From the NCBI RefSeq assembly GCF_009914755.1, contig NC_060937.1: a stretch of 64,000 nt of DNA. One strand, given 5' to 3'. Each line of letters starts with the position of its first letter. The first letter of the stretch is position 1. This DNA is from the human T2T-CHM13v2.0 reference genome, Homo sapiens. Shown here piece after piece: positions 30,345 to 31,930 of this stretch. The position numbers were made by a program, and so were the translations under genes. The notes under the pieces are model-generated. The model searched no databases. It worked only from the letters and a program-made list of their open reading frames with translations, and was not told the origin of the DNA.

Positions 30345-31342
30345 AATTATACAATTATTGAAAATAAAGAGTTTTTCTGGTTTATTATGGCATTTCTACT
30401 GGTAGCTATGGTGAATTGGATGTTCATGATAGAATTATGTTTTCAAAAATTCTATGGCCTGAAATGCATGCTGTTTTGACATTTATGCTTCCAAAATATT
30501 TTATACTACTGTAATGTTCCATTTCTAGTTACAGAAAGCAGACAAACCACACACCAAACTGTTCACAGAGTGATTCCTTACATCAAACCCCGACTGTCTT
30601 GTTGGTACAGTAAGCTACTTCTCTTTGTGTCTAGGCTGAAGCACAGCTTTTCAACCAAATGCATGTGTTGGCAGGGAAAACATGTTGGTGAAATTAATGT
30701 TTTAGAATATTCCAAATTTCTATCTAGTCTACATACTCAGTGGATACTTTTTCTATGTGTAATTCTGGGATGACTCTAGTGTAAATTTTCCTGCATAATG
30801 CTATTTCTCTCTATAGCGAAAAAGCCGTGAAATAGTCCATCAGTGGGTAGTGAAGGAATAGATTGGTCAAATTTTCCTTCTTGTAGTTCAAATGAACTAG
30901 AATGTGTTGGCAACGTTTTAATGAAAGGAAAGTTTCCCCGATAGATGTGACACTACTAGAAACTAAAAAACTAATTAAAATAGACTTTTTACAATGTTTA
31001 GTTGGAAAAGATGTTGCTCTTTGGTTAGAAATTTGAAGTAAAATGTTTCTTCTTTTAAGTTTTCCAGTCAATGCACAGGTATATTTTCTCTGCTGTTGCC
31101 CTTAAGTGATAATGTATTATTATGTTACCAACATAAGTTCTCTTCTTAAGATCATTGATTTAATGGAATACTTTAAATACTCACTTTTTTATTCAATGGA
31201 AAAGCAAATTGGCCTTTACTAGGTGTTCATTAATACAAGTTACATAAGACTAAAAACAATGTAGTTAAATTACGGGAGAGAATAAAAAATATATAATGAT
31301 GAAGTTTTTACTTTTAAGAAAAGGGAAATTACGCCACTTTTT

Positions 31343-31481
31343 TTTTTTTTTTCCTTTTTCTGGAGAACGGGGTCTTGCTATATTGCCCAGGCAGGTCTCG
31401 AACTCCTGGGCTCAAGCTATCCTCCCGCCTCTTAGCCTCCCTGAGAGCTGGGATTACAGGCGTGAGCCACCGCGCCCGGCC
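31343..31481 (-). pseudogene. BC200 (BCYRN1) RNA retrocopy
   Basis: Minus strand has BC200 diagnostics CCCAGCTCTCAGGGAGGCTAAGAGGCGGGAGGATAGC and CCCCGTTCTCCAGAAAAAGG; 16-bp perfect TSD AATTACGCCACTTTTT. Confidence 0.93.
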
Positions 31482-31930
31482 AATTACGCCACTTTTTAAT
31501 GACCAATTGTAATTCAAAAATATCAGAAAGAGAGACTTTAGAATCAATTGTATTTACCACTTGTCACTTACAGGAACAACATAAGGACTATAAATTCAAA
31601 GGTAGAAGTATTCAACCCATCTAGCTTTTCTGTGCATATAAAACACTATATATAAGGTAGTATTCATATTTACACTTACAAAACATGCTATTTTCATGGT
31701 CACATGAGATAACTCCTAATTTGGACAGAATTTGAAATTGGATTTAAGACATTTAAAGTGATGTTGTCTCTGTCAAGGGTTTTTCTATGTAGTCACTGAC
31801 TTCATTTCTCTCAATAGGACAAGACATTTGAAATAAGAGAAAAGAAGAGAGAGATGAAAACTTCCTTCAGAATTTTAAAATGTATGTGTTAGTACTCAAA
31901 TGAATAATATTTTAAATTAACTTTAGTCTG

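What the first reader, a model, noticed from the sequence alone, without database searches (positions are those of the whole stretch)
31319..31342. BC200 insertion site mimics BC200's own 3' unique domain: RNA-guided target choice?
Seen: on the element strand the target reads AAAAA-GTG-GCGTAATTTCCCT. Recalled BC200 3' region reads AAAAA-TAA-GCGTAACTTCCCT: 12/13 identity in the same register after the A-tract. AAAAAGTGGCGTAATT also lies 5' of the element as the TSD, so at least that part is pre-existing genomic DNA rather than copied RNA. Inference: the nicked target strand base-paired with the non-poly(A) 3' domain of BC200, so the RNA's unique tail helped select or stabilise the site during target-primed reverse transcription. 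Caveats: the comparison relies on my memory of the BC200 sequence, and the internal CAAAAGAC of the A-rich domain is absent, requiring slippage or later collapse.
Basis: partly seen in the sequence, partly recalled or inferred. Interest (0 to 1): 0.8.

Follow-up and report, generated by a model that had tools for sequence, protein, structure and literature searches.

The report
BC200 retrocopy at a BC200-like target
A young copy of the brain RNA gene BC200 sits at a genomic site that already resembled the RNA's own tail, a natural example of the known rule that LINE-1 copying starts more easily where target DNA can pair with the RNA.

Summary
Window 31343-31481 (minus strand) is a 3'-truncated BC200 (BCYRN1) retrocopy, 99% identical to the chr2 master locus. 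It has a perfect 16-nt target site duplication and a TTTTT/AA LINE-1 nick site. The target (duplication plus 5 flank bases, 31322-31342) matches BC200 nt 154-174 at 17 of 21 positions, including 12 of 13 over GCGTAAYTTCCCT, in register with the A-run.

Chance is unlikely. That 13-mer with at most 1 mismatch occurs 843 times in the genome, about 1.4e-7 per site. The flanks are single-copy and show no wider homology to BCYRN1 flanks.

Among 110 BC200 retrocopies with credible duplications, 3 reach a similarity score of 10 or more against 0.09 expected. The bulk is not shifted. Short 2-4 nt junction microhomology is the rule.

Best reading: pairing of the nicked strand with the RNA's non-poly(A) tail helped priming. 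This is the published integration-site complementarity of tailless retropseudogenes and the snap-velcro model, not a new guidance system. The missing CAAAAGAC motif remains unexplained; 4 of 34 comparable copies also lack it. New member of a known kind; modest interest.

The parts
31353..31481 (-). BC200 (BCYRN1) retrocopy body: full-length 5' Alu-like domain through ..CCAGAAAAAGG
   Evidence: 139-nt query 31343-31481 is 99% identical to the master locus G000:C2:47340355-47340493. Alignment starts at master base 1 (q0=0). Rfam sees only the SRP/Alu relationship: Metazoa_SRP 66.4 bits, below its gathering score of 70.
31343..31352 (-). 10 A of the A-run not accounted for by the duplication (RNA-templated; the boundary with the duplication's own 5 A is ambiguous)
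   Evidence: GG, A10, then the duplication. The master has A11 CAAAAGAC A10 at this place.
31327..31342 (-). 3' copy of the 16-nt target site duplication (AAAAAGTGGCGTAATT on the element strand); in the filled allele its + strand is the primer whose 3' T5 was extended
   Evidence: 16 of 16 identical to 31482-31497.
31482..31497 (-). 5' copy of the target site duplication; on the + strand TTTTT (31493-31497) is followed by AA (31498-31499), the LINE-1 endonuclease nick site
   Evidence: The consensus 5'-TTTTT/AA-3' is quoted from the abstract of PMC8565326 as listed.
31322..31342 (-). 21-nt stretch of target DNA (duplication plus 5 flank bases) identical to BC200 nt 154-174 at 17 of 21 positions (A5, 3 mismatches, 6 matches, 1 mismatch, 6 matches)
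   Evidence: ungapped score 11, second highest of 110.

Best explanation
This is an ordinary LINE-1-mediated (target-primed reverse transcription) retrocopy of BC200 RNA that lacks the RNA's 3' part. LINE-1 endonuclease nicked the window's + strand at a consensus TTTTT/AA site. The freed strand ends in five T and, further back, is complementary to BC200's non-poly(A) tail.

I infer that this strand annealed to BC200 nt 154-174 at 17 of 21 positions. The five T sat on the end of the second A-run and the rest on GCGUAACUUCCCU. The extra pairing made priming succeed at a site that would otherwise be one nick among millions. In that sense the RNA tail helped fix the site at the priming step. Nothing requires it to have guided the endonuclease.

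The lack of CAAAAGAC and of part of the A-runs needs one of two further events. Either the slippery A-rich domain collapsed, during or after copying, or the five T started on the first A-run while the tail stayed paired and the RNA between looped out.

What is shown: the retrocopy, the duplication, the nick site, the similarity and its rarity. What is inferred: the pairing, its causal role and the way the A-rich domain was shortened. This is one more case of the published integration-site complementarity of internally primed (tailless) retrocopies.
For: 1) Anatomy of a classical insertion: perfect 16-nt duplication, a TTTTT/AA nick site, and a full-length 5' end 99% identical to the master.

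2) The similarity is real and in register: 12 of 13 and 17 of 21. In-register identity to the first 17 nt of the unique domain is 12 of 17. For 50 other copies ending in the A-rich domain it is 2-8 of 17, and 500 shifted-register controls reach at most 9.

3) Rarity: 843 genome matches (454+389) of the 13-mer with at most 1 mismatch in 2 x 3.117 Gb, about 1.35e-7 per site. The backwards-read control pattern gives 1103.

4) No shared ancestry. Both flanks are single-copy in the genome. Local alignment of 300-nt flanks against BCYRN1 flanks is at shuffle level: 11.5 against a mean of 11.3, with 132 of 300 shuffles at least as high, and 13.5 against 11.2, with 29 of 300.

5) Family-wide tail excess. 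Score 10 or more is reached by 3 of 110 targets (L094 12, L001 11, L134 10) against 2 of 2542 flank windows. None of 300 composition-preserving shuffles of the BC200 core gives 3 or more at that score, and the reversed core reaches at most 8.

6) Pairing at the junction is the rule in this family. For 38 copies ending inside the unique domain, mean microhomology is 2.24 nt against 0.50 for other copies' duplications at the same junctions. Fourteen of the 38 lie at GCG|TAA.

7) The needed collapse has precedents. In 4 of 34 other copies that reach the unique domain (L029, L033, L063, L075) an A-run abuts that domain with no CAAAAGAC remnant.

8) Published framework: complementarity of 2-18 nt at tailless retropseudogenes (PMC5322556), and target choice through RNA-target base pairing (PMC4014453).
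Against: The retrocopy lacks CAAAAGAC. The simplest reading of its sequence is therefore priming on the first A-run, where the unique domain need not be involved. The in-register model needs a second event.

The bulk of BC200 targets shows no extended similarity: mean 5.08 against 4.78, and score 8 or more in 6 of 110 against 1.7 expected. Ten percent of shuffled cores reach 6 or more. After the short microhomology, identity falls to about one quarter.

Two of the three tail cases (L094, L134) match the A/C-rich CAAAGCAAC part of the tail, which is easier to hit by chance in A-rich targets. At least one score of 11 or more anywhere, in any register, occurs in 5.3% of shuffled-core trials. The register was noticed after the fact.

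A single-sequence ViennaRNA fold of BC200 predicts CUUCCC to be paired, with unpaired probability 0.04-0.09.

An energy-based survey showed no enrichment: dG of -14 or lower in 7 of 110 against 4.5 expected, and -10 or lower in 12 against 19 expected.

No empty allele and no experiment were available.
Confidence: 0.65

Rival explanations
1. Coincidence. The five T primed on the first A-run (nt 123-133) as in any A-tract-primed retrocopy. The target's likeness to the unique tail played no part.
For: The copy ends in an A-run directly after ..AAAAAGG and has no CAAAAGAC, which is what first-run priming gives. Many other copies end in the A-rich domain (50 of the first 85). Most targets show no extended similarity. 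One hit of score 11 or more in some register occurs in 5.3% of shuffled-core trials.
Against: The match is in the exact register that follows the second A-run. The per-site frequency is about 1.35e-7, so about 2e-5 such cases are expected among 136 copies at that register. No control window of 2542 reached 11, and three copies at 10 or more were never seen in 300 shuffles.
Confidence: 0.2
2. Shared ancestry. The target and the BCYRN1 3' flank are copies of one old repeat family. The BC200 copy landed at the same endonuclease-favoured A-patch that the founding Alu monomer once used.
For: The BC200 unique domain is former flank DNA of the founding insertion. By eye the two upstream flanks share a 10-nt stretch at 9 of 10. 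That is my reading, not a statistical result.
Against: Both window flanks (263 and 279 nt) hit only themselves in the genome. Local alignments of 300-nt flanks to the BCYRN1 flanks score at shuffle level. Very old, diverged repeats would escape these tests.
Confidence: 0.03
3. The BC200-like stretch is copied RNA. The retrocopy really runs through ..CTTCCCT and the '16-nt duplication' is something else.
For: The stretch lies where the unique domain would lie in a longer copy.
Against: The 5' copy of the duplication, upstream of base 1 of the element, carries the same four departures from BC200 (GTG for TAA, T for C). No alternative duplication follows TCCCT. The body is 99% identical to the master while this stretch is 81%.
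Confidence: 0.02

Closest known systems
Tailless retropseudogenes / internal priming with integration-site complementarity (Noll et al. 2015, PMC5322556, passages read; it cites Schmitz et al. 2004, which I did not read)
   Same: A LINE-1-made, 3'-truncated copy of a small Pol III RNA, with a target site duplication. The target is complementary to the RNA at the truncation point (published range 2-18 nt, consensus TT/WAAAAWW plus 0-17 further bases). There is a preference for A-rich internal patches. The BC200 family as a whole behaves this way here: 38 copies end inside the unique domain with a mean of 2.24 nt microhomology.
   Different: Here the copy ends in an internal A-run, so it looks 'tailed'. 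The complementarity is interrupted (5+6+6 matched of 21) and runs 5 nt beyond the duplication. An internal motif of the RNA is missing. BC200 does not occur in the text of that paper (0 occurrences). No held paper contains both 'tailless retropseudogenes' and 'BC200'. Its supplementary tables were not read.
Snap-velcro model of LINE-1 reverse-transcription priming (PMC4014453, passages read; PMC3649969, listing only)
   Same: Target choice depends on the endonuclease and also on base pairing of the last roughly 10 primer bases with the RNA. Here the 'snap' is closed (TTTTT).
   Different: The model was worked out for pairing with poly(A), counting T density in the six bases upstream. In this target those six bases contain no T and would instead pair with heteropolymeric RNA, and over a longer reach (21 nt).
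BC200 retropseudogenes and BC200-derived monomeric Alu insertions (Kuryshev et al. 2001, not held; statement in PMC5753468 read)
   Same: A member of this family: BC200 is described as the main source of newly transposed monomeric Alu copies in great apes.
   Different: Nothing in the passages I could read speaks of target similarity to the 3' unique domain. Kuryshev et al. may describe 3' ends of these copies, but I could not see it.

Membership tests
BC200 (BCYRN1) retrocopy | High identity to the BCYRN1 Alu-like domain, including its BC200-specific 3' end (..GTTCTCCAGAAAAAGG plus an A-run) | tested here: met
   99% over 139 nt to G000:C2:47340355-47340493. The anchor pattern matches exactly (row C13:103447351).
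BC200 (BCYRN1) retrocopy | Dispersed copy with its own flanks, not the master locus or a segmental duplicate | tested here: met
   Flanks are single-copy and unrelated to BCYRN1 flanks.
LINE-1-mediated (endonuclease-dependent) insertion | Target site duplication of about 7-20 nt | tested here: met
   16 nt, 16 of 16 identical.
LINE-1-mediated (endonuclease-dependent) insertion | First-strand nick at a TTTT/AA-like site | tested here: met
   + strand reads ..CACTTTTT/AATGACC at 31493-31499.
Tailless / internally primed retropseudogene | 3' truncation relative to the source RNA at an internal A-rich or single-stranded patch, with no added terminal tail | tested here: met
   The copy stops in the internal A-rich domain. 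Nothing from CAAAAGAC onwards, including the whole unique tail, is present.
Tailless / internally primed retropseudogene | Start of the duplication complementary to the RNA at the point of truncation (published 2-18 nt) | tested here: met
   17 of 21 in register with nt 154-174, but interrupted by a 3-nt and a 1-nt mismatch.
Tailless / internally primed retropseudogene | Copied RNA contiguous up to the priming site | tested here: not met
   If priming was next to the unique domain, CAAAAGAC and several A are missing. 4 of 34 other copies share such a collapse. If priming was on the first A-run the feature is met, but the complementarity then lies out of register.
RNA-guided target selection (pairing before or independent of the nick) | Evidence that pairing directs where the endonuclease cuts | not testable with these tools
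   The nick site is already a perfect endonuclease consensus. Sequence alone cannot order pairing and nicking.

The most novel reading that the evidence does not exclude
The non-poly(A) trailers of Pol III retrotransposition templates (BC200's unique tail, and by extension Alu 3' trailers) can act as true guides. They would form a 15-20 bp RNA:DNA hybrid with the nicked strand, raising insertion probability at matching sites by orders of magnitude. The far edge of the hybrid would help set where the second strand is cut. In the two near-register cases the similarity runs about 5 nt (L001) and 2-4 nt (L134) past the end of the duplication. That would make LINE-1 insertion partly programmable by the RNA's 3' end.
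Probability: 0.1. Interest if true: 0.65.

Novelty: new member of a known kind. Interest (0 to 1): 0.3.

Why it matters
No gene or annotated element is touched, so the locus has no evident functional consequence. Its value is as a clean natural record. It is a young insertion: one difference in 139 nt from the master and a perfect duplication. Both partners of the presumed primer-template duplex can still be read, and the pairing is heteropolymeric rather than T:A.

It supports the view that LINE-1 priming can use complementarity well beyond a few T. This bears on how tail-less or internally primed RNAs get copied, and on attempts to steer LINE-1-type insertion through the template's 3' end.

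The family survey adds a usable baseline for BC200. There is a priming hot spot at GCG|UAA, 2-4 nt microhomology is the norm, and long matches occur in about 3 of 110 copies.

Tried and rejected
1) Rfam. No BC200 family hit. The only matches were Metazoa_SRP at 66.4 bits (below its gathering score) and weak Alu-derived miRNA families, so Rfam could not supply the reference. The master locus from the genome was used instead.

2) Shared-repeat explanation. Rejected.

3) Duplex energies, using RNA-RNA parameters as a stand-in for RNA:DNA. The window's primer gives -17.4 kcal/mol, second of 110. The survey is dominated by G-rich windows pairing with the C-run and shows no enrichment, so it is not informative.

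4) A first automatic placement of junctions by global alignment misplaced about 10 of 38 copies. It was replaced by matching the last 7 copied bases, which still misplaces about 3 (L031, L045, L064).

5) In the first scoring the 3' copy of the duplication was used. One high score (L061) turned out to include copied RNA. The final scoring uses the 5' copy plus the 3' flank.

Flank windows, a reversed core and shuffled cores were used instead.

7) Coverage. About 35-45 further anchor-bearing copies were not fetched: 75 unlisted rows, of which 39 were recovered through, and 44 unlisted rows. Thirty loci were left out of the scoring. These are 26 with a duplication score below 8, the master L003, and three duplicate loci (L009, L023, L027).

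Kuryshev et al. 2001 is not held.

Full report
WHAT IS THERE

On the minus strand the window holds a monomeric Alu-like element starting GGCCGGGCGCGG at 31481 and running to ..CCAGAAAAAGG at 31353. It is followed by an A-run, which is 15 T on the + strand at 31338-31352. A perfect 16-nt direct repeat brackets it at 31327-31342 and 31482-31497. On the + strand the repeat ends ..CACTTTTT and is followed by AATGACC. That is the LINE-1 endonuclease consensus TTTTT/AA (the consensus is quoted from the abstract of PMC8565326 in the listing).

Rfam 15 has no family that captures BC200. The best hit is Metazoa_SRP at 66.4 bits, under its gathering score of 70.

IDENTITY AND REFERENCE

A search of the window's own assembly with the 139-nt element scored 40 of 2957 candidates. 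The second-ranked group, at 99% identity, includes G000:C2:47340355-47340493 (L003). Its continuation identifies it as the master BCYRN1 locus: GG, A11, CAAAAGAC, A10, TAAGCGTAACTTCCCTCAAAGCAACAAC, a C-run, then TTTT.

The window's target reads AAAAA GTG GCGTAAT TTCCCT on the element strand (31342 down to 31322). Against BC200 nt 154-174 this is 17 of 21 identical. Over nt 162-174 it is 12 of 13, in the register that follows the second A-run. The first 16 of these bases are the duplication and the last five are flank, so all of it is target DNA. The 5' copy of the duplication carries the same four departures from BC200.

IS IT CHANCE?

- The 13-mer with at most one mismatch occurs 454+389 = 843 times in the 3.117-Gb assembly. 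The pattern read backwards occurs 1103 times. That is about 1.35e-7 per oriented site.
- Both flanks (263 and 279 nt) are single-copy.
- Local alignment of 300-nt flanks with the BCYRN1 flanks scores at shuffle level. The 5' side gives 11.5 against a mean of 11.3, with 132 of 300 shuffles at least as high. The 3' side gives 13.5 against 11.2, with 29 of 300.

A shared repeat therefore does not explain the likeness.

FAMILY SURVEY

A 24-nt BC200-specific anchor finds 175 places with at most 2 mismatches and none for the backwards control. An older variant of the anchor finds 144 with at most 1 mismatch.

I fetched 140 loci. Dropping the master and three duplicate loci (L009, L023, L027) leaves 136. 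Of these, 110 have a duplication scoring 8 or more in an automatic search.

For each I took the 5' copy of the duplication plus the 3' flank (30 nt). This is certainly target DNA. I scored its best ungapped match (+1/-1) to the 28-nt core of the unique domain.

- The mean is 5.08, against 4.78 for 2542 flank windows of the same loci.
- Score 8 or more: 6 of 110, against 1.7 expected.
- Score 10 or more: 3 of 110 (L094 12, this locus 11, L134 10), against 2 of 2542, or 0.09 expected.
- With 300 composition-preserving shuffles of the core, none gave three targets at 10 or more. 5.3% gave at least one at 11 or more, and 10% gave six or more at 8 or more. The reversed core reached at most 8.

The bulk is not shifted, but there is an excess of a few long matches. 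Two of the three (L094, L134) match the A/C-rich CAAAGCAAC part, which is easier to hit. The window's match is not low-complexity and is exactly in register.

In the in-register test the window gives 12 of 17. Fifty other copies ending in the A-rich domain (from the first 85 scored) give 2-8 of 17. Five hundred shifted-register controls reach at most 9.

HOW THE FAMILY IS PRIMED

Thirty-eight copies end inside the unique domain. Their duplications begin with the next bases of the RNA for 2.24 nt on average, and for 3 nt or more in 20 of 38. Duplications of the 71 other copies placed at the same junctions give 0.50 nt. Fourteen of the 38 junctions are at GCG|TAA (about three placements are doubtful). 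After this short microhomology, identity drops to about a quarter.

This is the pattern published for tailless retropseudogenes. Those show internal priming at A-rich patches, and the insertion site is complementary to the terminal 2-18 nt of the annealed RNA (PMC5322556, passages). It also fits the snap-velcro model, in which RNA-target pairing contributes to target choice (PMC4014453, passages).

MECHANISM PROPOSED

After the nick, the + strand ending in T5 paired with BC200 nt 154-174, and reverse transcription started on the A-run.

The weak point is the absent CAAAAGAC. In-register priming predicts A11-CAAAAGAC-A10 in the copy, but only an A-run is seen. Precedents exist. In 4 of 34 other copies that reach the unique domain (L029, L033, L063, L075), an A-run abuts that domain with no remnant of the motif.

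The alternatives are priming on the first A-run with the tail paired and the RNA between looped out, or priming there with no role for the tail, which is the chance rival. A-run lengths are too unstable to decide.

A further caution comes from folding. A single-sequence fold predicts CUUCCC of the tail to be paired within BC200, with unpaired probability 0.04-0.09. Against that, a review's figure legend labels a 3' unpaired region (PMC6114260).

VERDICT

It is not a general property of BC200 insertions, and the principle is already in print.

No held paper contains both 'tailless retropseudogenes' and 'BC200'. The main paper on BC200 pseudogenes, Kuryshev et al. 2001, could not be read. The specific case may therefore be undescribed, but I cannot say so firmly. 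I class it as a new member of a known kind, of modest interest.

Noticed in passing
L007, L011, L013, L017, L025, L029, L034, L037, L055, L086, L108, L118, L123, L134 (junction after master nt 164): A priming hot spot. 14 of 38 BC200 copies that end inside the unique domain stop exactly at GCG|TAA, and their duplications begin TAA or TAAC.
   Followed up: partly
L134 (G000:C10:74504526-74505449): A second near-register case. The duplication plus flank begins TAAC at the junction and then carries a 10 of 10 match (TCAAAGCAAC) to the BC200 tail, offset by a 3-nt bulge. The two duplication copies differ at 1 of 14 positions.
   Followed up: partly
L094 (G000:C23:122214059-122214982): A 12 of 12 match (CAAAGCAACAAC) to the BC200 tail just after a low-complexity (AAAC)n duplication. 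It could be pairing, a chance match in A/C-rich DNA, or a miscalled duplication.
   Followed up: partly
L029, L033, L063, L075: The central A-rich domain is collapsed to a plain A-run, with no CAAAAGAC remnant, in copies that were clearly primed in the unique domain. Many other copies show expanded or (AAAC)n-type A-rich domains.
   Followed up: partly
about 37 loci, e.g. L045, L047, L050-L055 (exact matches): An older subfamily reads ..CCACAAAAAGG instead of ..CCAGAAAAAGG, and several long copies read AACTCCCCT instead of AACTTCCCT in the tail. This is consistent with retrocopies recording earlier states of the master gene, a reading suggested by the title of Kuryshev et al. 2001, which I could not read.
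   Followed up: no
L008/L009 (G000:C23:70.16 and 70.19 Mb, opposite strands); L022/L023 (C23:71.2 and 71.4 Mb); L026/L027 (C21:12.15 Mb and C13:17.92 Mb): Three pairs of BC200 copies share their flanks, so they are segmental duplicates rather than independent insertions. The two X-linked pairs are inverted. The L026/L027 pair is a long copy running through the C-run.
   Followed up: no
L002 (G000:C16:73606766-73606904) and L024, L058, L080: BC200 copies inserted inside Alu elements. L002 is as young as the window's copy (99%) and ends at ..CAAAAGA with a 17-nt duplication of Alu sequence.
   Followed up: no
L010 (G000:C23:138032512-138032650): A full-length copy that runs through the C-run and a short T stretch and then carries an A13 run, as if a complete, terminated transcript had been A-tailed before copying.
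   Followed up: no
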